NCBI GenBank assembly: GCA_000004985.1
Contig: GG738881.1
DNA: 64,000 nucleotides
Source: Naegleria gruberi
Lineage: Eukaryota
Direction: 5' to 3' (one strand)
Position 1 is the first letter of the stretch, and each line of letters opens with the position of its first letter. Shown piece after piece: positions 1 to 63,979 of the stretch. Both the position numbers and the translations under genes were made by a program. Below the pieces are notes generated by a model, which had not been told where the DNA came from, did not search any database, and saw nothing but the letters and a program-made list of their open reading frames with translations.

Positions 1-350
1 CCAAACCCAAACCCAAACCCAAACCCAAACCCAAACCCAAACCCAAACCCAAACCCAAACCCAAACCCAAACCCAAACCCAAACCCAAACCCAAACCCAA
101 ACCCAAACCCAAACCCAAACCCAACCCAAACCCAAACCCAAACCCAAACCCAAACCCAAACCCAAACCCAAACCCAAACCCAAACCCAAACCCAAACCCA
201 AACCCAAACCCAAACCCAAACCCAAACCCAAACCCAAACCCAAACCCAAACCCAAACCCAAACCCAAACCCAAACCCAAACCCAAACCCAAACCCAAACC
301 CAAACCCAAACCCAAACCCAAACCCAAACCCAAACCCAAACCCAAACCCA
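1..350. repeat. Telomeric repeat array (CCCAAA)n, about 58 units; C-rich strand shown, so this is a left chromosome end
   Basis: Near-perfect hexamer repeat from position 1 to about 350. There is one variant unit (cccaac) near 121-126. The array ends abruptly at ...cccaaaccca|gaactaaaaa. Confidence 0.9.
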
Positions 351-21918: not shown

Positions 21919-23971
21919 ATGGAAAATGTAAAAACGGAACAAGAACCTTCTGAAAATTGTCATCATGATGATGCTGGTAATAACAATTCATCATCATCCA
22001 AGGCTGGTTCATTCTTATTTGAACATTTATTGCCAAGAGAGGAAGAAATTAAAAAGTGGATTTTAAATTGTTGTTGGGAAAATTCGGAAGGAGCATCATC
22101 TTGGTCGGAAGAAGCAAATAATGATGTTTCGAGTTTATCTACTAGTATGAAACATGTTAGAAAAATTATTAGATTATTATTGGATTTTTTGAATGAATTT
22201 TCCTTCTTGTTTAAATTTATCAACTCACAAAATGGTGATGCCTATGATGGACTCGAGAATTATGAGAAATTCAAGGAAGAACAACACTTGTTGTACTTTA
22301 TTTGGAAGGATCATTATGGAAATTGTTTGCCTGTGGAGTGGCAAGACTATTTTCAAACATGTAGTGATGAATTATTGATAGAAATGATGAATTATACGCA
22401 ATCTGAGGATGAATTGTTTATTAAACAATTTGAGGAGGGTACAATTTTTGGAAAGGATGGAATGCCAAATTCTGTGAAGAGATTCCTGATGGGTTGCAGA
22501 GTGCTGAGATTTCACAAGCACGTAATTGAAAATCCCAAAGATATCATTTCTTACCTGTCCTCTCCAAAGTTTGATTTGAGTTGTGAGAGTGGTGAAATTG
22601 CCAACTCGAACGAACTTACTAGAAATATGTCGCCAAAGAAGATTCACGAAATTGAGAGATTGGCAGAATTTATTAGCTACTTTTCCTATTCTTCAGATGA
22701 TCAACAATTAGAAGATGTTGAAAGTGTCATTCCAACAATTCTTGGTAGGTTTTAATAGTTTTAATACTTATGAAATTATAGATCTCGGCTCTGGAAAGGG
22801 TTATCTTTCACATGTTCTCTTCACCAAGTATGGATTAAATGTTGTTGCAGTTGACCACAATGAACAACTCGTCCAAAAAATTCAAGCTAAGGCTCAAAAA
22901 GATGTACAGAAAAAGAAGAAACAACAAAAGAATCAACTCAAAGCCATTGCCTCTCATTTAGAATGCAACAGAGAACAATTGTGTAAGATGGTTAATCAAA
23001 TGTTGGAAACAACAAAATCGATCAGAGAGGATGTTATTGGAAATAATTGTATTGTAGGTCTACATACTTGTGGTGATTTGTCTTGCATTCTAATGGACAT
23101 GTACGTCAATGATGTGAGACATACCCAAAGTTCTCTATTGAAATCACTAGTTAATGTTGGATGCTGTTATCACAAGCTCACTGAAAAGTATCACAAACAA
23201 CATGTAAATACTAGCTCTACTAACAACAGCAGTGAAAAGATTGACCAAGCATCAAACTCTGAGGCATTGAAATTTAGTGGTTTTCCACTTTCTCCCTACA
23301 CGAATGATTATGTTGTGAATAATCTGGCCAATGGTTTTCAATTCACTAGATCTGGACTCATTCTAGGATGTACAGAGAATACCATTTGGAAAGATTCCTT
23401 GAGCGTCTCAAACAATTCAACAACAATAGAAATCATTCCAGTACATGACTATTGGAAGAGAAATGCATTCAGATGTGCTATGGAATATTTCCTGCATGAA
23501 TTTGTGGAAAAGAACGAGGAAGGTATTGAACATCCAGTTGTCTACAGTTTTGGAAGTATTGCAGAACAAAATCTATCGAGCACAAGTTCTTCAACTCAAT
23601 CTTCATGTCCAGATTTTGTCAAGTATGCCCTAGCTGTCTTGCAACGATTGTCCAAAACAAGTGTACTCTCCAAGAAATTTCATAGAGAGGATATTGTAGA
23701 AATGGCCATCCAAGATGAGTATTCTCCTGAGCTTGTGCAGGAAATTGGTCAATTTTACATTCAATCTTGTGGAGCTCAACCTGAAACTGCAAGAATCAAG
23801 AAAGTTGATATCTTTTGGACTTTAAGAGCCATTATTGGTCCAGTCATTGAAAGTCTAATCCTCCTCGATCGATACCTCTTCCTTTTAGAAAACAACACTC
23901 ACGCTGATATTGTCCAGCTATTTGATGAGGACATTTCACCTCGTGCCTTTGCACTCTTTGCCCACAAGTAA
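21919..23971 (+). CDS. METTL25-like (Methyltransf_32) SAM-dependent methyltransferase, two exons joined by a 37-nt intron
   Basis: ORFs 21919..22755 and 22715..23971 overlap in different frames. Removing the intron gtaggttttaatag...gaaattatag (about 22744-22780, 37 nt, 1 mod 3) joins ...VIPTIL to DLGSGKGYLSHVL, a SAM-binding motif I. ATG at 21919, TAA stop. Confidence 0.65.
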
Positions 23972-24170: not shown

Positions 24171-27100
24171 ATGAATGCCTCGGAGCTTTTACTTTGCATC
24201 ATTAAGATGATGATAATCATGATGCTTATTGTTAGTTGCTTGATGGTAGATTGGGGTCATTCCGCACTCGTTGATAAGAAGTTTAAATTAAAGACAGTGT
24301 GTGGTGATTTTAATTATCCTTACTTTTATCGTCCAAAGGGATTGTCATATTATTCGGGTTCTATTTATGTTGCTAATACAGGACAGCATAATATTATTAA
24401 ATGTGATCCTACTAATGGCGCCATTCAAATAGGTAAGTTTTATTTACTAATAATAGTGATTATTTAATATTTACATTATATAAATTTATATATATGAACA
24501 ACAATAATAATAGTGGCTGGAGCATCAGGATATTCTGGATTTGTTGATAATTTAGCACCATTACAATCTTACCTAAATACTCCTAGTGATGTTTGGGTTG
24601 AACAGGACAATGTCTATTACATTGCAGACACCCTTAATAGAAGAATTAGAAAAGTCTCCAATGGAATAATGACAACACTAGCAGGGGATGGAGTTGCAGC
24701 AAGTAACCCTGACTTTATTACACCTGTTCAATTGAACGATCCAAAGAAAATATTTCTTTATGGTGGCAATTTGTACTATGCAGAATATGAAAAGATTAGA
24801 AATATGCATAATATGCAACCAACAAGCATTGAAACCATAGCTGGAAACACATACGGATCTACTATTGGAGTTTCTGCTCTAAGCTCACAAGTTAAGGAGC
24901 CTCAAGGTCTTTATTTCTATTCGGACAATAAGTATTTAATAGCGGATACTGGAAATCATCGTATTTTAAAAGTAGAAAATAGTGTAGTTAGTTTTATTGC
25001 TGGAAGTAGTTCTCAAGGATACTCAACAGGTTATGCCATAGGTTCTCAACTTTCATCACCAAATGGTGTTGTAGCTTTGGGATCTTCAGTAGTATTTACA
25101 GATACTGGAAATCATTGTATTAGAAAGATTAACACAGATGGAACTTTAACTACCATTGCAGGAGTTTGCACTACTTCAGGTTATAACTCAGATCAAGCAG
25201 ATGCCACCAATGCTTGGCTCTCATCACCAAGTGGAATAGTTGAAGTAAATGGTGATTTATACTTTACGGATTCAATGAACGGAATTATTAGAAAGTTGGA
25301 AGCTTATTGTGATACTGGATATGTATCATATGATAATTACCAATGCACATTAGCGACGGTTGTGCCTCAATGTTTTGGAATTAGTGCTTCAGACTCTTCA
25401 GTTTGTTCAGGAAGAGGATCTTGCACAAGTTACAACAATTGTGTCTGTAATTCTACATATTATGGATCTCAATGTAGTTATGATTATTCTTGTGGTGGAT
25501 TGAGTCCAGATTCATCAACAGCATGTAACGGAAAAGGTGTTTGCCAGTCACAAGATAAGTGCCAATGTATTTCTGGTATTGTTGGTAATTTGTGTAATCT
25601 TGAGGCCAATTGTTTTGGAATCTATTCATATACAAGCACGGTTTGCAGTGGTAAGTTTTTCATTGGAAAATTAAGTTAATACTAAATTTAAACTAATAAG
25701 GTAGGGGAACATGTGTGAGCAATGACAAATGCTCGTGTAGTGATGGATATTATGGATCTCAATGTTCTTACAGTTATGCATGTAATGGAATAGCTCCAGA
25801 TTCATCAAATGTTTGTAATAGTCGTGGTGTTTGTACTTTGACTGGTTATTGTTCTTGTTATTCTGGTTTTTCTGGAGGATATTGTGAAAATATTAATCCA
25901 ACTAATTCATTCATGTGTTTTGGATTTTATCCATACGAATTAAATGTTTGTGGAGGTAAGTTGGTTTGATTCCAAATTTGTTGGTTAATATTTCGTTTAT
26001 TAGCAAATGGAAATTGTATTGGCACTAATGTATGCTCATGTAATAAGGGATATTATGGATCTCAATGCTCGTATAATTATGCATGTAATGGAATAGCTCC
26101 AGATTCATCAAACGTTTGTAATAGTCGTGGTTCATGTAATTCGAATGGTACATGTTCATGTGTATCTGGTTATCAGGGATCATACTGTGAATCAGCACAG
26201 TCAACACATGTAGTGAGTTCTGACACTGGCATTTGGATTGGAATTGGGCTGGCTATTGGAGTTTCTGTTCTTTTTCTTGTTGTGATATCCGTTGGGTTGT
26301 TAATTATTGTCATTACCTTGCGATTAAGAAAAAAGAAACATAATGAAGCAAGAAGAATAGATCAACTTAGAAAAGATAATGATGAGCAAGCTAGAATTCA
26401 ATCTAACAAGGAAAAGCCACAAGAGATGATTAACCTTACTATCACTACCAATAGTAATTCATCAGGTGTTAATGCTATAGCTAATACCAGTACTAATCAA
26501 CCATCATCTTCATCTACTAATACTCAGATACAACCATCTTCAACAATGGGATCATACACAAGCTATCTTAATAGTAACAGTAATCAAAACACAGAATTAT
26601 CCTATGCCATTTTGAATCAGGGTGAGGACAACTCTTTTAGACCTCCTCCAACCATTATTAAACAAGCAAGTAAGACGAATGATGGTATGGATATATTCTC
26701 ATCAAAGGATCACACCTATAAGATAATTAAGGTTTTGGGACGAGGAGGATTTGGAACGTGTTATTTGTGTGCAGATGTTGAATCGAATGATTTGATTGCT
26801 GTTAAGGCAATCCCAACAAACTTGAACGACTTTTCATCTATTTTCAGTGAATTCTCCAAATGTTTGGCATTCCAACATCCAAACTTGGTCAGGTCATATG
26901 AATATTTACAAGGAAATGGAATGATGTGTCTTGCAATGAAATTCTACAAGTGTGGAGATTTGGAGCATATTTTCAGAAATGTTGCCAAGAGAAAGCCACC
27001 ATCTGATGAATTATTAATTTCAATCATTAATCAGGTGGGTGAAGGTCTTGATTATTTACATAGAACCCAAAAGGTCCTCCATCGTGATATCAAGCCTAAC

Positions 27101-27517
27101 AATATTATGGTTGATGAATTTGATGAAGATAATTCAAAGATTTCAGTTGCTATTGGAGATTTTGGAGTTTCAAAACAAGCTACTACTGCTCACACTTTTA
27201 CAGGAACAATTTATTATGTTTCACCTGAATTATACGCTGGTTCAAAGGATACTTCATATCCAACTGATATATTTTCATTTGGTGTCACAATGTACTTGAT
27301 CATATGCAACCATTTTAACAATATGAGACAAGGTATTACTCAATTATCAATGGTTGAAGGTTATGATAAGGTTATGGATAAGGTTAGAAAGGAGTTGAAT
27401 GCTACAGGTATCAAAGATGATATTACTGAATTGGTAATGAAAATGTTATCTAAGGAACCTGGAGAAAGACCACTCGCTGAAGAATTAGCCAATTTCTGTA
27501 AGATTAATGTTTGTTAA
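24171..27517 (+). CDS. Receptor-type Ser/Thr protein kinase: signal peptide, NHL repeats, tenascin/EGF-like Cys repeats, TM helix, kinase domain. Four exons: about 24171-24432, 24514-25650, 25701-25955, 26004-27517
   Basis: Introns gtaagt...aataatag (81 nt), gtaagt...ctaataag (50 nt) and gtaagt...tttattag (48 nt), all phase 1. NHL-like blades (YVANTGQHNIIKC, YIADTLNRRIRKV, LIADTGNHRILKV, VFTDTGNHCIRKI, YFTDSMNGIIRKL). Repeated C.C..GYYGSQCSY modules. TM segment IGIGLAIGVSVLFLVVISVGLLIIVITL then RLRKKK. Kinase motifs GRGGFGTCY, AVKAI, HRDIKPNN, DFGVSK, SPE. Confidence 0.75.
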
Positions 27518-27547: not shown

Positions 27548-29476
27548 TTACAAACAACTTGCATTTCTACATAATTGATTGTAAACAGCATTAGCCACAG
27601 CAACACCGGAATTCCAACCAGCTTGATTGGCATATTCAAAGTGAATACCACCATAAATTCTGGATTTACCAGCTTCCTTAGCAGCATCTGACAATTTGTT
27701 AAATGTTCTTGTGTGATATTTGTAACCATCACTTACTACATCAAAGGAGATGTCATCACTTCCCAATACTAAACTCAAAATTCTTGCAGCAGCACCAGAG
27801 AAGGTTGAGTGTCCACTGGTGTATTCAGGGAAAGGTGGAGTTGCCAACAATGGGAACCAATTAAGATTTCTATTTCTATTATTTACAGCTGTCACTGGAC
27901 GAAGTGCATTATAGAAATATTTGTGATCCCAAGAAACAATACCAGCATCAGCAAGAGTACAACCTAACAATTTGAAAATGGCAGATACTTTGAAAATGTC
28001 AGTAATTCCTTGGCTTCTAATAATTGATTGAAGGATGACATTCCAATGTCCTGGTGGAGTGGCAGTTCCTGCACCATCATCCCAGAACCAAGCAATTCTT
28101 CTTTGATCAAAAGTTCTAACACTTGAATCATTTCTACCATACAAGAATACTTCATCATAGGAAGTTTCGAATAAAGGAGTTCCCAATTGTGGAGGTGGAC
28201 CTTGTCTAAAACTTTCAACATTTTGAATTCCAAAAGGTTCAACATTTGGCCATTGAGGCAACAATGGATTTCTGACATAATTTGGAGCATGACTTTGATA
28301 ATCCATTGCTCCATCTCTAAATTGATAATCAACAAATTCTGCACTTCCATCATTATCTCTAGATCTCAAAACTCTGTCAGCTGTCGTCACTGCAGATTTA
28401 CCAATTTTAGTTAATTCTGAAACGTCATATTGTGAACATCCATTACATTGTAAAGCTCTCTTCAATGCAGCATTATAACAATCAATATTATTTGGAAATA
28501 ATTGAGAAAGGACACGATGAGCAGAAAAGGAAATTGTGGTTGCAATGGTTGCGTAGTCACATGCCTTGTTTGAGTTTCTGGATCTTCTGCAGGAGCCAAG
28601 GGCATCGTCTGTGGCTGTGTGAAGAATGGCCATGGCTCTGGATGCAATTGGTGGAGCAACTTTGAAATCTCTGACAGTTGACAGTAAAACATTATTCCAC
28701 TTGACAATGAAATCTTCATTGAAAATGTCTTTTTCAGTGGTAATTGCAGCACATTTTGGAGCAATATCAGTTTGACTGATTGGGAAAGTATGAGAACTGA
28801 CAACACTGACATAATATTGATTAGTGACAGGATTAATTCTAATCAAATTCAAACCTCTAGCCATTCCTTTACCCCAAATATTTGAACTCAATTCACAATC
28901 AACAACCAATGAACCATCTGCTGAAATTCTCATTGGCATTGGACTAGACCAAGTAATTCTAGGAAAGGCAATACTACCATTGACCTTCCAAAAATAGGTA
29001 TAAAACCCAAATGGTAAAATTGAACCTGTGTCCACCCAAGTACCATTTTTACCTCCGTAAGCTCCGTGGACAACAAGTGGTTTAGTAAGCATGATTGCAA
29101 AGGCATCATCATAAACTCCCAAATCTTGTGAACCTGCCAAATTTGGATAACCTCGAACTTTTGCATAGTGAACTACATATTGATCTCCCACAGATGTGAA
29201 AAATTGTGCACCATCTGGCAAACGAGCTCCATTATCAGAAACATCCAAACCATATTGATTTCTATAGAAATTTGTTGCCTTTTCATGAGCATCTGGATAA
29301 CGAGTGATTGGTGCAATGTTTCCTGCTTGAATGCCATCTGCCAAAATTGACAGGTGGAATTGAGCATCGTATTCTTGAGGATTGGTTTCTGTGGTTGGTG
29401 AGTAGGCATTGATTAGAAGAAATGGTGAAAAAATCAATGTAAACACGAGAAGGAGTCGTGTTAGTGGAATTGACAT
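27548..29476 (-). CDS. Secreted vanadium-dependent haloperoxidase / PAP2 acid-phosphatase-superfamily protein (642 aa), intronless
   Basis: Signal peptide MSIPLTRLLLVFTLIFSPFLLINA. C-terminal motifs KYFYNALRP (K....RP), PEYTSGHSTFSGAAA (PSGHS) and SRIYGGIHFEYANQAG (SR...H) match the vanadate/phosphate-binding signature of V-haloperoxidases and PAP2 enzymes. TAA stop. Confidence 0.7.
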   Translation of the reverse strand: MSIPLTRLLLVFTLIFSPFLLINAYSPTTETNPQEYDAQFHLSILADGIQAGNIAPITRYPDAHEKATNFYRNQYGLDVSDNGARLPDGAQFFTSVGDQYVVHYAKVRGYPNLAGSQDLGVYDDAFAIMLTKPLVVHGAYGGKNGTWVDTGSILPFGFYTYFWKVNGSIAFPRITWSSPMPMRISADGSLVVDCELSSNIWGKGMARGLNLIRINPVTNQYYVSVVSSHTFPISQTDIAPKCAAITTEKDIFNEDFIVKWNNVLLSTVRDFKVAPPIASRAMAILHTATDDALGSCRRSRNSNKACDYATIATTISFSAHRVLSQLFPNNIDCYNAALKRALQCNGCSQYDVSELTKIGKSAVTTADRVLRSRDNDGSAEFVDYQFRDGAMDYQSHAPNYVRNPLLPQWPNVEPFGIQNVESFRQGPPPQLGTPLFETSYDEVFLYGRNDSSVRTFDQRRIAWFWDDGAGTATPPGHWNVILQSIIRSQGITDIFKVSAIFKLLGCTLADAGIVSWDHKYFYNALRPVTAVNNRNRNLNWFPLLATPPFPEYTSGHSTFSGAAARILSLVLGSDDISFDVVSDGYKYHTRTFNKLSDAAKEAGKSRIYGGIHFEYANQAGWNSGVAVANAVYNQLCRNASCL

Positions 29477-29936: not shown

Positions 29937-30683
29937 ATGCTAAAACTCTTCCTCACTCTACTTTTAGTAACTTTCCTTTTAAATTTCTCAAACCAAGCTT
30001 GCGATCCTTCAAAATTATTCGATGCTGAATTGAGTTTATTATTTGATGATGCGTTGCCATTCGATTTGATTCCAAAGAGGATGGAATATCCATTGAATAC
30101 TCAACGTTTTACAAATGCCAAGTTGGTTGAAGGTTTACAATTTTTCAAAACCAGATTTGGAATTGACTTGAATGTCAACAGTCAAAAAGAATTCAGATTG
30201 GAAAAGGGAAGTTTTGAAGGTTATAGTGTAGTTGGTGCAGTTACTAAGAAATCAAGATTCTTTGGAAGTCCATTGATTAGAGTTTATGCTGACATGTTGA
30301 CAGTTGTCAGTTTGAATTCCACTCAAATTGATCCATTGACTCAATATCCAATTCCAAAGGATGCTATTGCTCAATTTGGTTACTATTCATTCTATTACAG
30401 AGCTAACAATACTTTATTTACTGAACCTATCAAAGTCACAAGTCAAACTTTCCAAGAAGGTTGGAGAGATGCTCAACAAAACCTTGACCATTCACGTAAT
30501 ATTATCTTTGACTTGTATTCTCCAGAGTGGGGAGTTGGTTCTTCTCAAGGTGTTGTCACAATGCCAATGCATGATTCTACATTAGGTAAAAGTCAAGTGT
30601 CAATGAGAGAATGGTTGAGATTTCCACCTGTTGGAACTGCCAAGAGAGGTGATGTTACCACTTGTCAATCTTGGTTAAATTAA
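29937..30683 (+). CDS. Secreted protein (248 aa) paralogous to the N-terminal non-catalytic domain of the adjacent haloperoxidase-like gene
   Basis: Signal peptide MLKLFLTLLLVTFLLNFSNQA. Shared blocks LQFFKTRFGIDLNV vs ATNFYRNQYGLDVS and FGYYSFYYRANNT vs FGFYTYFWKVNGS. Divergently transcribed from a shared 460-bp intergenic region. Confidence 0.55.
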   Translation: MLKLFLTLLLVTFLLNFSNQACDPSKLFDAELSLLFDDALPFDLIPKRMEYPLNTQRFTNAKLVEGLQFFKTRFGIDLNVNSQKEFRLEKGSFEGYSVVGAVTKKSRFFGSPLIRVYADMLTVVSLNSTQIDPLTQYPIPKDAIAQFGYYSFYYRANNTLFTEPIKVTSQTFQEGWRDAQQNLDHSRNIIFDLYSPEWGVGSSQGVVTMPMHDSTLGKSQVSMREWLRFPPVGTAKRGDVTTCQSWLN

Positions 30684-60574: not shown

Positions 60575-62413
60575 TCAAAACGTACCATCTTGACAGGATT
60601 GGTTGCTCCAACATTGTATATCAATAAATGTTGATTGAGTCATTTTACGTATGAATTCAACTCCTTCACCAGAAATACTATTTTCATAAATAGAAAGTCT
60701 GGTCAATTGGTTCATTTTACTGATTGCCTTGAATCCTTCATCACTAATATTATTATCGCAAACATCTAGATGGGTCAATTGTTTCAGTTCACTTATTGAC
60801 ATAGCTCCATCATTACCTAAATTATTTCCTTTAATCACAAGTTCAGTTAAATTTTTCAAGTCTGAAAGGTGTTTAGCTCCTTCACTACTAATAGAATTAT
60901 GGGAAATATCTAGAATAGTCAGTTTTTTCAGTTCACTTATATGCATAGCTCCATCATTACCTAAATTATTTCCTGTAATCACAAGTTTAGTTAAATTTTT
61001 CAAGTCAGTAAGGTAATTTGCTCCTTCACTGCTAATAGAATTATCGGAAATAGAAAGCTCCTTCAATTGTTTCAATTCACTAATGTATTTAGCTCCTTCA
61101 TCACTAATACGATTATAGGGGATATTGAGACAGGTCAATTGATTCAATTGACTGATGTATTTCACACCTACACCTCTCATTTCACTGTAAGGAAAATTAA
61201 GAATTGTTAAATTTTTCAATTCGCTAATGTATTCAAGTCCTTCACCATCAAAATGACTTTCAAGAATAGAAAGTTCTGTCAATTGTTTCAATTTACAAAT
61301 GTGAAAAACTCCTTTCTTATTAATATTGTTTACAGAAATGTCAAGTTTGGTTAATTGTGTCATTTCGCTTATATACTCAGCTCCTTGTTCACAAACGTAA
61401 TTCTCAGAAACAAGTAGAGTAGTTAATTTTTTCATATTTCTAATATATTTAGCACCTTCTTCACGAACATAGTTTTTAGTAACATCAAGATATGTTAATT
61501 GTTTCAATTCACTGATATATCTAGCTTGTTCAGATCTAATACCACTTTCAGAGATATAAAGACTTGTCAATTGGTTCAATTTGCTAATATATTTAGCTCC
61601 CTCAATACTAATTTCATTTTCACTAATGTGAAGAACTATCAATTTTTTCAATTGACTTATTGATTGAAGTACTTTATCGTCAATACTACATGTATTAATA
61701 TTAAGGCATGTCAACTGCTCAAATTTACCAATATATTGAGCTCCTCCACTACCTATCTTAATACGAGAAATATCAAGATTTGTTAAATGTTCCAATCCAC
61801 TCAAATATATTATTCCTGCATCACCAATACTATCATTGCAGGCAATTTCAAGACTTGTTAATTGTTTCAATTGACTGATATATTTAGCGCCTACATTGTC
61901 AATATAATTAGCAGAAATATTAAGCTTTGTTAATTTGTTAAATGATTCACTGATAATTTTAACTCCTTCGGAACCAATATAATTACCAGAAATGTAAAGA
62001 CTTGTTAATTGTTTCAATTCAGCCATGCTTTCAACATGTTCATCATCAATATCCATTCCTTGAATTTCAAGACTAGTCAATTGTTTCAATTGACCAATAT
62101 ATGTAACTGATTCGGAATCAATTTTAACTCCAACAACGTAAGGAATACAAAGATTAGTTACTGATTTCATCAATATTAATTTTTTGTAAATATTTGATAG
62201 TACTTTAATCTCAAGATTTGCAATATTTTGTAAAAATTGACCATTTACATCATTGGAATGACATTTAACAGTCATATTATGACATGTTGATAGAATGACA
62301 TTGTACCATTGTTTAGAAACTAATGCACAATTCATGACAAGAAATTTAAAATCGTCACCATAGAACGATAAAATTTCATAAATAACATCATCTTGAAAAA
62401 CTTCTCTTTCCAT
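60575..62413 (-). CDS. F-box-like + leucine-rich-repeat (RNI-like, about 20 repeats) protein, 612 aa
   Basis: N-terminus DDVIYEILSFYGDDFKFLVMNCALVSKQWYNVIL is F-box-like. Then a regular 24-25-aa LRR repeat (LKQLTSLEIQGMDIDDEHVESMAE / LKQLTSLYISGNYIGSEGVKIISE ...). This gene uses TGA as its stop, the only one in the window. Confidence 0.7.
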   Translation of the reverse strand: MEREVFQDDVIYEILSFYGDDFKFLVMNCALVSKQWYNVILSTCHNMTVKCHSNDVNGQFLQNIANLEIKVLSNIYKKLILMKSVTNLCIPYVVGVKIDSESVTYIGQLKQLTSLEIQGMDIDDEHVESMAELKQLTSLYISGNYIGSEGVKIISESFNKLTKLNISANYIDNVGAKYISQLKQLTSLEIACNDSIGDAGIIYLSGLEHLTNLDISRIKIGSGGAQYIGKFEQLTCLNINTCSIDDKVLQSISQLKKLIVLHISENEISIEGAKYISKLNQLTSLYISESGIRSEQARYISELKQLTYLDVTKNYVREEGAKYIRNMKKLTTLLVSENYVCEQGAEYISEMTQLTKLDISVNNINKKGVFHICKLKQLTELSILESHFDGEGLEYISELKNLTILNFPYSEMRGVGVKYISQLNQLTCLNIPYNRISDEGAKYISELKQLKELSISDNSISSEGANYLTDLKNLTKLVITGNNLGNDGAMHISELKKLTILDISHNSISSEGAKHLSDLKNLTELVIKGNNLGNDGAMSISELKQLTHLDVCDNNISDEGFKAISKMNQLTRLSIYENSISGEGVEFIRKMTQSTFIDIQCWSNQSCQDGTF

Positions 62414-62597
62414 TTTTTTTGGTAAATCATAATTTATTCAATTTTTTGGTCAACCAAACATTTTACATCATGCTGATTCTAGGAATGATTTCACATCACT
62501 TGTTTGGAATTTAATTCATGTTGGTACATCATCAGAACAACCTGAACTAGCTTTGATGTTATTTAACATCATAGCTCAACGAAAGGGTAACTGATGA

Positions 62598-63979
62598 TTA
62601 TTGTCTTGTTTTGAAAGAATTGAAAAGTGAGAATACAACATCCAAGAGTGAGTTAACTATTTCCTTAAATTCAGGTCTACTCTTGAAATTGTATTCAACA
62701 CATTTACTTCCTAATGTGTGGATAAGCTTGGCTTGCTCTTCTGTAAGACATGGATAATGCTTACATAATTCTTCAACAGAAACGAAATTGATTTTGAGCA
62801 GCTGAGTATTGCTATCTTTTGTACGCACAATGCTTTGATTGGTCAAAAGCATATTCAGTGTAACTCCAAAACTGAAAGCATCCACTTTTGTGTTACCTAT
62901 TTCCGCACCTGTTACCATTTCAGCAATCTCTGGAGGCTTCCATAACTGGGTCATCATATTAATCAATTATCAACTTACCATATAGCCCGCAGTACCATAG
63001 ATTGAAGTTAGTGTTGTCAAATATTTTGCTGACTCCTTTGCTACGCTAAAATCTGTTAGTTTTACATCATTCACATATTCAATTCCATTAATAGTAATTG
63101 TTGAATAGAGAATATTGGAAGGTTTTAAATCGTGATGATAGATTTTTTCACTATGCAAAAATTCAAGTGTTTGAGCAATTTTCAAAGCAATGAACATAAT
63201 TTGAAATATTTGTCCATAACCTTGTCCTCCAAAATCATTAAAAGAATTTGTTTCATCTTTAAAACTTTTCATCAGTTCCAAAAATAATTGTACATTATTA
63301 TCATTTTCTTCATAATGAATTAACTTGACAATTCCTGGATGTTTGCTAACTTTTCTAATAATGTTTAGTTCTTCCAAATTATTTTCACATTTTATCGTTT
63401 TTCGTGCTACTGGAATATTATTCAATAATACTTTAACCACAATACCACATGCACCCTTTCCTAATTCTGTCATGCCACTTAGATCTATAATAGGATTTTG
63501 TAAAGTACAAGAAGTGATGGTATCAATGAATTTCTCAACATTATTAAGTGCAATAATCTTAGAAATGTTGTGTTAAAATTGAAAGGCATATCCTGAATAG
63601 AGGAAATATTAAGGAATGTGCTGAGTTGGGTTTTGTCGTTTGGATTCAAAAATTTGCTTAAAATTGACTTTTCTATTCCTACCACTCCTAATCGTTGTGC
63701 TGTTTTCAATACTGGAATGATTAAGTGTGTTGGAAGAGTGACATTAATTCTGTAGCAATATTTCACAATATATATCATTTCTTTTGGATAATTATCATCT
63801 GAAGATATCAAATTAAAATTAGTCATAGATGAATTTAGAATAGTTTTGTGACACTTTACAATCTCTCCATCAATTGTTAATACTAAATCGTGGTATAATT
63901 TAGTTTTGTACAAGTTTTGGAGAGTTTCTAACAAATCATTTCGATGAAAAATGTTCAACAGAGGTTCAACTGAATTCAT
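62598..63979 (-). CDS. BTB/POZ-domain + protein-kinase-like protein (kinase with non-canonical HHD and DFS motifs), at least 2-3 exons
   Basis: ORF 63485..63979 carries a BTB core (YHDLVLTIDGEIVKCHKTILNSSMTNF). ORF 62970..63473 carries the kinase N-lobe and catalytic loop (LGKGACGIV, VARK, HHDLKPSNIL, TDFSVAK). ORF 62598..62966 carries the C-lobe, joined through a 33-nt gtaagt..cccag intron (..GYM|LWKPPEIA..). The BTB-kinase junction at about 63474-63484 is not resolved. Confidence 0.5.

What the first reader, a model, noticed from the sequence alone, without database searches (positions are those of the whole stretch)
24171..27517. NHL-repeat / EGF-repeat / TM / Ser-Thr-kinase receptor built from symmetric phase-1 exons
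All three introns fall between protein modules and are phase 1. Each EGF-like C.C..GYYGSQCSY module begins right after an intron. This is the classic exon-shuffling arrangement. The ectodomain combination (NHL beta-propeller plus tenascin-type EGF array) attached to an HRD-type (non-tyrosine) kinase is not a standard metazoan receptor class. It resembles lineage-specific receptor kinases of protists.
Basis: partly seen in the sequence, partly recalled or inferred. Interest (0 to 1): 0.5.

Follow-up and report, generated by a model that had tools for sequence, protein, structure and literature searches.

The report
Naegleria NHL–EGF receptor Ser/Thr kinase gene
This is a real four-exon Naegleria gruberi gene for a membrane receptor with a six-bladed propeller and six EGF domains outside the cell and an intact Ser/Thr kinase inside, but its introns cut through domains, so its repeated EGF exon comes from internal tandem duplication and not from classic exon shuffling.

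Summary
The gene model holds. Exons 24171-24432, 24514-25650, 25701-25955 and 26004-27517 (+) splice through three GTAAGT..AG introns, all phase 1, into a 1055-aa protein. Its order is signal peptide, six-bladed NHL propeller, six EGF_2 domains, one TM helix, then a catalytically complete HRD/DFG Ser/Thr kinase.

The window is Naegleria gruberi. The gene is NAEGRDRAFT_50593 (XP_002674840.1).

- Intron 1 lies inside a beta-strand of propeller blade 1.
- Introns 2 and 3 lie between Cys2 and Cys3 of EGF3 and EGF5, inside domains.
- The first YYGSQCSY module has no intron before it.
- Exon 3 is one copy of a three-copy tandem two-EGF unit. Duplicating about 303 bp that contained an intron makes a 1-1 exon automatically.
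- Three relatives have no intron in their EGF arrays or at the intron-1 position.

The architecture recurs in a small heterolobosean kinase clade that has at least two ectodomain types. It is an undescribed but unsurprising protist receptor-kinase variant. Function is inferred, not shown.

The parts
24171..24432 (+). Exon 1. It holds the ATG, a hydrophobic N-terminal signal sequence (aa 1-29), the N-terminal closing strand of the propeller and most of NHL blade 1.
   Evidence: splice model; hydropathy; AF2 helix 3-25 and strands 37-89. This exon is missing from the public model P0001.
24433..24513 (+). Intron 1: 81 nt, GTAAGT..AG, phase 1, splitting codon 88 inside strand 85-89 of blade 1.
   Evidence: There is no intron at the equivalent position in the N. 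lovaniensis homologue.
24514..25650 (+). Exon 2. It holds NHL blades 2-6, a Cys-containing linker, EGF1, EGF2 and the first third (Cys1-Cys2) of EGF3.
24279..25307 (+). Six-bladed NHL beta-propeller, aa 37-352. It spans intron 1.
   Evidence: The AF2 model has pLDDT mostly above 90 with 6 x 4 strands. Foldseek matches include teneurin-like protein 9ifo (E 5e-21), SOQ1 7djm, NHLRC2 6g7w, teneurins and Pizza6. Pfam gives NHL and TEN_NHL.
25371..26188 (+). Array of six six-Cys EGF_2 domains (aa 374-613), organised as three tandem two-EGF units: A (374-453), B (454-538) and C (539-618). It spans introns 2 and 3.
   Evidence: There are 36 Cys in 6 x 6 register. Each domain alone passes the Pfam EGF_2 gathering score. 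The DNA repeat family D1 has 3 copies at spacings of 290 and 303 nt.
25651..25700 (+). Intron 2: 50 nt, phase 1, splitting codon G467 between Cys2 (C465) and Cys3 (C471) of EGF3.
25701..25955 (+). Exon 3: 255 nt, symmetric 1-1. It encodes EGF3 Cys3-6, all of EGF4, and EGF5 Cys1-2. The public model skips it.
   Evidence: An open frame with all 10 aligned Cys retained is unlikely under neutral drift: p about 0.002 at 14% divergence and 0.014 at 10%. The unit containing it (unit B) is 72% nt identical to the next unit, C.
25956..26003 (+). Intron 3: 48 nt, phase 1, splitting codon A552 between Cys2 (C550) and Cys3 (C556) of EGF5. It is probably a duplicate of intron 2.
   Evidence: The 47-nt stretch before and across the donor is duplicated (D2, 70%). 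Intron 2 versus intron 3 similarity is reached by 3% of shuffles.
26004..27517 (+). Exon 4. It holds EGF5 Cys3-6, EGF6, the TM helix, a Ser/Asn/Thr-rich juxtamembrane region, the kinase domain and the TAA stop.
26231..26320 (+). Transmembrane helix, aa 628-657 (IWIGIGLAIGVSVLFLVVISVGLLIIVITL), followed by the basic stop-transfer sequence RLRKKKH.
   Evidence: hydropathy above 2.5. The same TM-plus-basic pattern can be read in all family members.
26717..27490 (+). Ser/Thr protein kinase domain, aa 790-1047. Motifs present: GRGGFG, AVK, HRDIKPNN, GDFG, VSPE.
   Evidence: Pfam Pkinase 1.1e-47. Motifs are read from the translation. The nearest solved kinases are CAMK-type CDPK1.

Best explanation
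The locus is one Naegleria gruberi gene, NAEGRDRAFT_50593. The public model mis-annotates its 5' end and omits exon 3. It encodes a type-I single-pass receptor Ser/Thr kinase.

Proposed layout and mechanism:
- An N-terminal signal sequence directs a six-bladed NHL beta-propeller to the cell surface. This is the likely ligand-binding head.
- A stalk of six tenascin/teneurin-type EGF domains connects the propeller to the membrane.
- One TM helix and a roughly 130-aa low-complexity juxtamembrane linker lead to a cytoplasmic RD-type kinase with every catalytic motif intact.
- The most likely mechanism is ligand- or contact-driven clustering of ectodomains, followed by trans-autophosphorylation of the Thr-rich activation loop (DFGVSKQATTAHTFTGT). 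This step is inferred, not shown.

Proposed history:
- The EGF stalk grew inside this gene by tandem duplication of a two-EGF unit.
- The last duplication copied about 303 bp that already contained a phase-1 intron sitting between Cys2 and Cys3 of an EGF domain.
- That event created the symmetric 255-nt exon 3 and a second intron at the same intra-domain position.
- Because both introns cut EGF domains at the same point, including or skipping exon 3 both give intact EGF domains (six or four).
For: Gene model:
- Identity to N. gruberi P0001 / XP_002674840.1 is 100% over shared parts.
- The public model starts at aa 140, inside blade 2, and lacks a signal peptide. The extended model restores a confident closed six-bladed propeller.

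Domains:
- Pfam hits are, the cysteine register, and the two hydrophobic segments.
- Kinase motifs are complete (translation; alignment to CDPK1).

One gene:
- EGF5-6, the TM helix and the kinase are contiguous in exon 4.
- Relatives share the architecture: P0002 (N. lovaniensis), P0138 (N. gruberi paralogue NAEGRDRAFT_68566) and P0142 (a single 1284-aa ORF).

Duplication:
- There are three DNA copies at spacings of 290 and 303 nt. Units B and C are 72% nt identical, against 56-57% to unit A.
- The duplicated region includes the donor, and the two introns are weakly similar.
- Unit A has no intron at the homologous site.
- There is no EGF intron in L001, L002 or L003.

Exon 3 is coding: the neutral-drift simulation gives p about 0.002-0.014.
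Against: - No transcript evidence was available. The public model skips exon 3, so it could be a cassette or unused exon.
- dN/dS between units B and C is only 0.68.
- The EGF part of the AF2 model has low confidence, so disulfide connectivity was not verified.
- The N-terminal hydrophobic segment has an acidic n-region and could be an uncleaved anchor.
- Ligand, localisation and kinase activity are all untested.
- Intron 2/3 homology is weak (3% of shuffles reach it).
Confidence: 0.7

Rival explanations
1. Classic exon shuffling. On this view, phase-1-flanked module exons were inserted by intronic recombination from other genes, and that is why all introns are phase 1.
For: - All three introns are phase 1, and exon 3 is a symmetric 1-1 exon.
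- The CFG-type EGF module occurs in heterolobosean proteins with different partners: NHL without a kinase (P0029), 7TM-RGS (P0045), and other repeats (P0017).
- The kinase clade occurs with at least two ectodomain types.
Against: - The introns lie inside domains, not at their edges.
- Exon 3 starts at Cys3 of one EGF and ends at Cys2 of another, so it is not a transferable folded module.
- Its nearest relative is the adjacent unit of the same gene.
- Unit A, and the EGF arrays of L001, L002 and L003, have no intron.
- None of the introns in the N. lovaniensis homologue coincide with these.
- Phase identity of introns 2 and 3 is inherited, not independent.
Confidence: 0.1
2. The public 831-aa model is right about exon 3. 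On this view the mature mRNA joins exon 2 directly to exon 4 (a 353-nt intron), giving a four-EGF receptor. Exon 3 is then either a decaying duplicate or only a minor cassette exon.
For: - P0001 reads ...YTSTVCS|ANGNC..., which is exon 2 joined to exon 4.
- Skipping keeps the frame and the Cys spacing.
- dN/dS for units B and C is 0.68, which is only weak constraint.
Against: - Exon 3 keeps an 85-codon open frame and every cysteine, despite about 28% nt divergence from its paralogue. Neutral simulation gives p about 0.002-0.014.
- Both of its splice sites are full GTAAGT / AG consensus with short introns, like intron 1.
- The same public model is wrong at the 5' end. It has no signal peptide and a truncated propeller.
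Confidence: 0.2
3. The protein is an adhesion or surface-matrix protein whose kinase domain is a non-signalling pseudokinase, or whose activity is constitutive. On this view it is not a ligand-gated receptor.
For: - NHL-EGF-TM proteins without a kinase exist in Naegleria (P0029).
- NHL plus EGF ectodomains in teneurins mediate adhesion (established knowledge).
Against: - All catalytic motifs are intact: GxGxxG, the beta-3 Lys, HRDxKxxN, DFG and (S)PE.
- The kinase domain is the best conserved part between species: 55% identity to N. lovaniensis against 32% overall.
Confidence: 0.12

Closest known systems
Mycobacterium tuberculosis PknD-type bacterial receptor Ser/Thr kinases (Hanks kinase + TM + extracellular six-bladed NHL propeller)
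   Same: Both are single-pass membrane Ser/Thr kinases whose extracellular sensor is a six-bladed NHL beta-propeller. The propeller's best sequence matches are bacterial NHL proteins, including one named PknD (P0028). The fold matches Pizza6; that Pizza6 was designed from a PknD-type NHL propeller is recalled knowledge.
   Different: - The topology is reversed: the ectodomain is N-terminal and the kinase C-terminal here.
- PknD has no EGF stalk and no signal peptide, and its gene has no introns.
- The kinase here is a eukaryotic CAMK-like type, with bacterial StkP only further down the list.
- This is an analogy of design, not membership.
Metazoan teneurins and teneurin-like proteins (EGF repeats + NHL propeller ectodomain)
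   Same: - Pfam's best EGF and NHL models for this protein are the teneurin ones: EGF_Teneurin, EGF_TEN and TEN_NHL.
- The top structural hit is teneurin-like protein 9ifo.
- In both, the EGF domains are membrane-proximal and the NHL propeller is distal.
   Different: - Teneurins are type-II proteins with a YD-shell/toxin domain and no kinase.
- There is no YD, TTR or FN-plug here.
- EGF_TEN scored 49.5 bits against a cut-off of 65.
Lineage-specific protist and plant receptor Ser/Thr kinases (Entamoeba histolytica TMKs, plant RLKs)
   Same: The plan is the same: variable ectodomain, one TM helix, cytoplasmic non-RTK kinase. The family also swaps ectodomains on one kinase clade. Entamoeba TMKs are described in PMC2880585 (listed).
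   Different: - The kinase is not of the Pelle/IRAK/TKL type. Its nearest solved kinases are CAMK-group.
- The NHL+EGF ectodomain was not reported in any paper returned by the literature searches; Entamoeba CXXC-type and plant LRR/lectin ectodomains are recalled from knowledge, not checked here.
- The family is small, with two members seen in N. gruberi.
Metazoan EGF-module genes with phase 1-1 exons (Patthy-type exon shuffling)
   Same: The introns are phase 1, and there is a symmetric exon within an EGF array.
   Different: In the metazoan pattern the introns flank whole modules. Here they cut between Cys2 and Cys3 of an EGF, and the exon spans parts of three domains.

Membership tests
Eukaryotic protein kinase, Ser/Thr-specific, catalytically competent (Pfam PF00069) | Pkinase profile match above the gathering score | tested here: met
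   163.1 bits against a cut-off of 31.7, aa 790-1047, profile positions 1-258 of 263.
Eukaryotic protein kinase, Ser/Thr-specific, catalytically competent (Pfam PF00069) | Catalytic motifs GxGxxG, VAIK Lys, HRDxKxxN (the Ser/Thr form), DFG and APE-like | tested here: met
   GRGGFG, IAVKAI, HRDIKPNN, GDFG and VSPE are read from the translation and align to CDPK1.
Type-I single-pass receptor kinase | N-terminal signal sequence, one internal TM helix, and the kinase C-terminal to the TM helix | tested here: met
   There are only two hydrophobic segments, aa 1-29 and aa 628-657, and a basic RLRKKKH follows the TM helix. Signal-peptide cleavage was not tested with a dedicated predictor.
Type-I single-pass receptor kinase | Ligand-dependent activation at the cell surface | not testable with these tools
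   This needs localisation and biochemical assays.
NHL-repeat six-bladed beta-propeller | NHL profile hits and a closed six-blade fold | tested here: met
   NHL 52.8 bits and TEN_NHL 36.7 bits. The AF2 model has 6 x 4 strands with pLDDT above 90. Foldseek matches NHL propellers at E 1e-21 to 1e-13.
EGF-like domain (EGF_2, tenascin/teneurin type) | Six cysteines in EGF spacing, with each domain above the Pfam gathering score | tested here: met
   There are 36 Cys in 6 x 6 register. The six segments score 26.4-31.1 bits against a cut-off of 22.1.
EGF-like domain (EGF_2, tenascin/teneurin type) | C1-C3, C2-C4, C5-C6 disulfide connectivity | tested here: inconclusive
   The EGF region of the AF2 model has pLDDT mostly below 70, and coordinates were not inspected.
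Exon-shuffled mosaic gene (class 1-1 modules) | Introns of one phase located at module boundaries, so that each exon equals a module | tested here: not met
   The phases are all 1, but all three introns lie inside domains.
Exon-shuffled mosaic gene (class 1-1 modules) | The same module exon, with the same flanking intron positions, found in other genes | tested here: not met
   There is no intron in the EGF arrays of L001, L002 or L003. N. gruberi paralogue DNA was not retrievable, so the test is incomplete.
MAP kinase kinase (the name UniRef gives to D2VLP5) | Closest similarity to STE7/MEK kinases | tested here: not met
   The best 60 PDB matches are CDPK, CaMK1, MARK, SNF1, StkP, NEK2 and ASK1. 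No MEK or MKK is among them. The name appears to be an automatic label.
Teneurin | Type-II topology with a YD-repeat shell/Tox-GHH C-terminal region, and an EGF_TEN match above the cut-off | tested here: not met
   No YD or related hits were found, and EGF_TEN scored 49.5 against a cut-off of 65. The topology is type I.

The most novel reading that the evidence does not exclude
Exon 3 may be a regulated cassette exon. Introns 2 and 3 cut EGF3 and EGF5 at the same intra-domain point. Inclusion therefore gives a six-EGF stalk, and skipping gives a chimeric but intact four-EGF stalk. The amoeba could use this to tune how far the NHL sensor head projects from the membrane. More broadly, this small heterolobosean kinase clade, with NHL-EGF or other ectodomains, would be an independently evolved surface-sensing receptor kinase system in a lineage with no described receptor kinases. 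It may have been built on a bacterial-type NHL sensor like that of PknD.
Probability: 0.15. Interest if true: 0.45.

Novelty: new variant of a known kind. Interest (0 to 1): 0.27.

Why it matters
- The public N. gruberi model for this gene lacks its signal peptide, about 1.5 propeller blades and two EGF-domain equivalents. Correcting it changes the protein from an odd cytosolic-looking kinase into a clear cell-surface receptor.
- Heterolobosean amoebae, including the pathogen N. fowleri, have poorly known surface sensing. A small clade of receptor Ser/Thr kinases with interchangeable ectodomains is a concrete set of candidates for prey, substrate or cell-contact sensing.
- The locus is also a cautionary example. 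Symmetric same-phase exons in a repeat array can arise from tandem duplication of a segment that contains an intron, and need not indicate exon shuffling.
- None of this overturns current understanding.

Tried and rejected
- The protein-database search with the TM + kinase region did not recover even the gene's own public protein. The search with the two-EGF unit found nothing at all. The word index evidently failed on these queries, so a survey of 'paralogs sharing the EGF exon' could not be made that way. The exhaustive kinase-domain search was used for the family instead.
- N. gruberi genomic loci for P0001 and for the paralogue P0138 are not on record. Intron positions in the N. gruberi paralogue therefore could not be checked. 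N. lovaniensis and metagenome loci were used instead.
- Four literature searches found no paper describing this gene, this family, or any Naegleria receptor kinase. The N. gruberi genome paper is not in the library.
- The idea of two separate genes (NHL-EGF and kinase) was rejected, because exon 4 is contiguous from EGF5 through the kinase and the homologues are fused.
- The UniRef label 'MAP kinase kinase' was rejected.
- Synteny with N. lovaniensis was considered. The neighbours differ: Methyltransf_32 and PAP2 here, against XPG, AOX and APH there. Orthology of P0002 is therefore uncertain.
- A second copy of the gene in the window was looked for with tblastn and not found.
- Disulfide connectivity could not be read from the AF2 model because confidence was low in the EGF region.
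Full report
**1. What is in the sequence**

The region lies between a Methyltransf_32-type gene that ends at 23971 (+) and a PAP2/VCPO-like gene at 27548-29476 (-). No single ORF covers it. Joining 24171-24432, 24514-25650, 25701-25955 and 26004-27517 gives one 3168-nt reading frame of 1055 codons plus TAA.

The three introns are 81, 50 and 48 nt. All have GTAAGT donors and AG acceptors, and all are phase 1, splitting codons 88, 467 and 552.

**2. Identity of the locus**

The best database hit, P0001, is identical to the window translation wherever the two overlap. It is 'predicted protein [Naegleria gruberi]', XP_002674840.1 / EFC42096.1 / NAEGRDRAFT_50593 / UniProt D2VLP5.

- It starts at Met140 (24669), so it lacks exon 1 and the first 51 codons of exon 2.
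- It joins exon 2 directly to exon 4 (…YTSTVCS|ANGNC…), skipping exon 3.

The longer model is better supported.
- It supplies a hydrophobic N-terminal signal segment.
- Its N-terminus aligns with that of the N. lovaniensis homologue.
- It completes a confidently predicted closed six-bladed propeller. The public start would fall inside a strand of blade 2.

**3. Domain architecture**

Pfam finds the following.

| Domain | Position or count | Score |
|---|---|---|
| Pkinase | aa 790-1047 | 163 bits |
| EGF_2 | six matches | 26.4-31.1 bits each |
| EGF_Teneurin | present | 60.7 bits |
| NHL | present | 52.8 bits |
| TEN_NHL | present | 36.7 bits |

AlphaFold2, run with a 26-sequence alignment, gives aa 37-352 as six four-stranded blades, mostly at pLDDT above 90. 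Foldseek matches NHL propellers: teneurin-like protein 9ifo, SOQ1, NHLRC2, teneurins and Pizza6.

Residues 374-613 contain 36 cysteines in six sets of six. Each set on its own exceeds the EGF_2 gathering score.

Hydropathy shows only two hydrophobic segments, aa 1-29 and aa 628-657. The second is followed by RLRKKKH.

The kinase carries GRGGFG, AVK, HRDIKPNN, GDFG and VSPE. These are the Ser/Thr form of the catalytic loop, with all catalytic residues present. Its nearest solved relatives are CAMK-group kinases: CDPK1 at 1e-26, then CaMK1, MARK and SNF1. Bacterial StkP, NEK2 and ASK1 also appear. No MEK is among the top 60, so the UniRef name 'MAP kinase kinase' is not supported.

**4. One gene, not two**

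- Exon 4 alone runs from Cys3 of EGF5 through EGF6, the TM helix and the kinase.
- The public model already joins the NHL and kinase parts.
- The same NHL-EGF-TM-kinase order occurs in N. lovaniensis C9374_004148 (P0002) and in the N. gruberi paralogue NAEGRDRAFT_68566 (P0138).
- It also occurs in a metagenomic protein, P0142, that is encoded as one uninterrupted 1284-codon ORF.

**5. Where the introns really are**

- Codon 88 lies in predicted strand 85-89, the fourth strand of blade 1.
- Codon 467 lies between C465 (Cys2) and C471 (Cys3) of EGF3.
- Codon 552 lies between C550 and C556 of EGF5.
- Both EGF positions are inside the Pfam EGF_2 match envelopes, aa 462-488 and 548-573.
- The first YYGSQCSY-bearing domain, EGF1, has no intron at the homologous VCSG|RGSC site.

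So none of the three introns falls between modules. Exon 3 encodes two-thirds of EGF3, all of EGF4 and one-third of EGF5.

**6. Origin of the symmetric exon**

The EGF array is a three-copy tandem repeat of a two-EGF unit. At the DNA level the copies are 25416-25598, 25706-25888 and 26009-26191, with spacings of 290 and 303 nt.

| Pair | Nucleotide identity | dS |
|---|---|---|
| B vs C | 72% | 0.47 |
| A vs B | 57% | 0.99 |
| A vs C | 56% | 0.95 |

The 47 nt that end in the donor GTAAGTT are also duplicated. Introns 2 and 3 align better than 97% of shuffles.

The simplest history is this: an intron was present, or arose, inside one EGF of the B/C ancestor, and a segment of about 303 bp that included it was then duplicated in tandem. 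Any in-frame tandem duplication of a segment containing one intron yields a symmetric exon flanked by same-phase introns. The 1-1 pattern is therefore not independent evidence for shuffling.

With introns 2 and 3 non-independent, agreement in phase with intron 1 has a chance probability of about one in three.

Comparators point the same way.
- The N. lovaniensis homologue has six annotated introns, none at these positions, and no intron in its genuine EGF sequence. The annotated break near its second EGF seems to bridge a one-base frame change.
- P0142 has about ten EGFs in one ORF.
- The NHL-EGF-TM gene C9374_010347 has its whole EGF array in one exon, and its introns also cut through NHL blades and linkers.

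**7. Is exon 3 used?**

No transcript data were available. Several points favour use.
- The exon has full-consensus splice sites and short flanking introns like intron 1.
- It has an 85-codon open frame.
- Every cysteine is retained despite about 28% divergence from its paralogue. A neutral-drift simulation gives p about 0.002 at 14% divergence on this lineage and 0.014 at 10%.

Two points count against use.
- The public model skips the exon.
- dN/dS is 0.68.

Skipping is structurally harmless, because both introns cut at the same point of an EGF. A cassette role therefore remains possible.

**8. Family and context**

An exhaustive HMMER search with the kinase domain shows a gap in identity.

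| Hit | Identity |
|---|---|
| P0002 | 55% |
| P0126 (metagenome fragment) | 58% |
| P0132 / N. fowleri FDP41_008832 | 42% |
| P0138 | 39% |
| P0145 | 39% |
| P0142 | 37% |
| P0147 | 36% |
| Most other listed hits (mainly multi-kinase-domain proteins) | 23-35% |

One further listed hit, P0127 from the plant Tagetes erecta (49%, matched in 15 separate kinase stretches), is outside this clade.

All full-length members have one TM helix followed by basic residues, with the kinase at the C-terminus.
- Four carry NHL + EGF ectodomains.
- The N. fowleri protein and P0147 carry a different ectodomain with no Pfam match.

The CFG-type EGF domain (C-[FY]-G-x9-C-S-G-x-G-x-C…) is common in heterolobosean surface proteins with other partners, including 7TM-RGS, NHL-only and others. 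So domains have been recombined at the protein level in this lineage, even though this gene's exon structure is not evidence for how that happened.

**9. Mechanism (inferred)**

The protein is most likely a type-I receptor Ser/Thr kinase. The distal NHL propeller would be the binding surface, the EGF array a rigid spacer, and activation would follow clustering and activation-loop phosphorylation of an RD kinase.

The architecture, topology signals and catalytic competence are shown by sequence. Surface location, ligand and activity are not shown. The design parallels bacterial PknD (NHL sensor + TM + kinase) with reversed polarity, and its ectodomain resembles teneurins. Both are analogies, not memberships (see the membership tests).

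**10. Verdict**

The exon-shuffling interpretation is not supported.

The protein is an undescribed variant of a known kind, a lineage-specific protist receptor kinase with an NHL-EGF ectodomain. It is already present, unnamed and partly mis-modelled, in public databases. Interest is modest.

Noticed in passing
window 1-350 (and 1-2000): There are 58.5 tandem copies of CCAAAC at 99% match at the very start of the window. Over 1-2000 the GC fraction is 0.19, with strong GC and AT skew. This looks like a telomeric C-strand repeat (TTTGGG on the other strand). If so, the window begins at a chromosome end and the receptor-kinase gene lies about 24 kb from it.
   Followed up: partly
window 24669-27517 versus public model XP_002674840.1: The public N. 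gruberi gene model for this locus starts at an internal Met and omits exon 3. As a result it lacks the signal peptide, the first 139 residues and 85 residues of the EGF array.
   Followed up: yes
window 60575-63461 (-): A 612-aa LRR protein ORF lies at 60575-62413 (LRR_6 and LRR_8). A kinase-like tblastn match lies just upstream on the same strand at 62835-63461. Together they may be one LRR + kinase gene.
   Followed up: partly
window 27548-29476 (-) and 29937-30683 (+): A 642-aa secreted-looking PAP2 / vanadium-chloroperoxidase-N-like protein lies head-to-head with an ORF whose product is weakly similar to its N-terminal 200 residues (21% identity, E 8e-4). They may be a diverged, divergently oriented paralogue pair.
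   Followed up: partly
L001 9700-9800 (N. lovaniensis PYSW02000020.1): The second EGF of the N. lovaniensis homologue changes reading frame by one base within ...CSCWEGY / FGNNCEK... The public model bridges the change with an intron-like gap (…NRRG|RLSTTT…). This is an assembly error, a real frameshift or a mis-annotation.
   Followed up: partly
P0045 (ENA metagenome protein), P0029 (L003), P0017 (Acrasis kona): The same CFG-type EGF array is attached to a 7TM + RGS domain protein, to a multi-propeller NHL-TM protein without a kinase, and to other repeat proteins. It appears to be a general heterolobosean ectodomain building block.
   Followed up: partly
aa 37-352 of the protein (window 24279-25307): The NHL propeller's strongest sequence matches outside Naegleria are bacterial and metagenomic NHL proteins, at 25-40% identity (mostly 30-39%). 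Several carry names given by their sources, such as YvrE or PknD. A bacterial origin for this domain is possible but was not tested phylogenetically.
   Followed up: no
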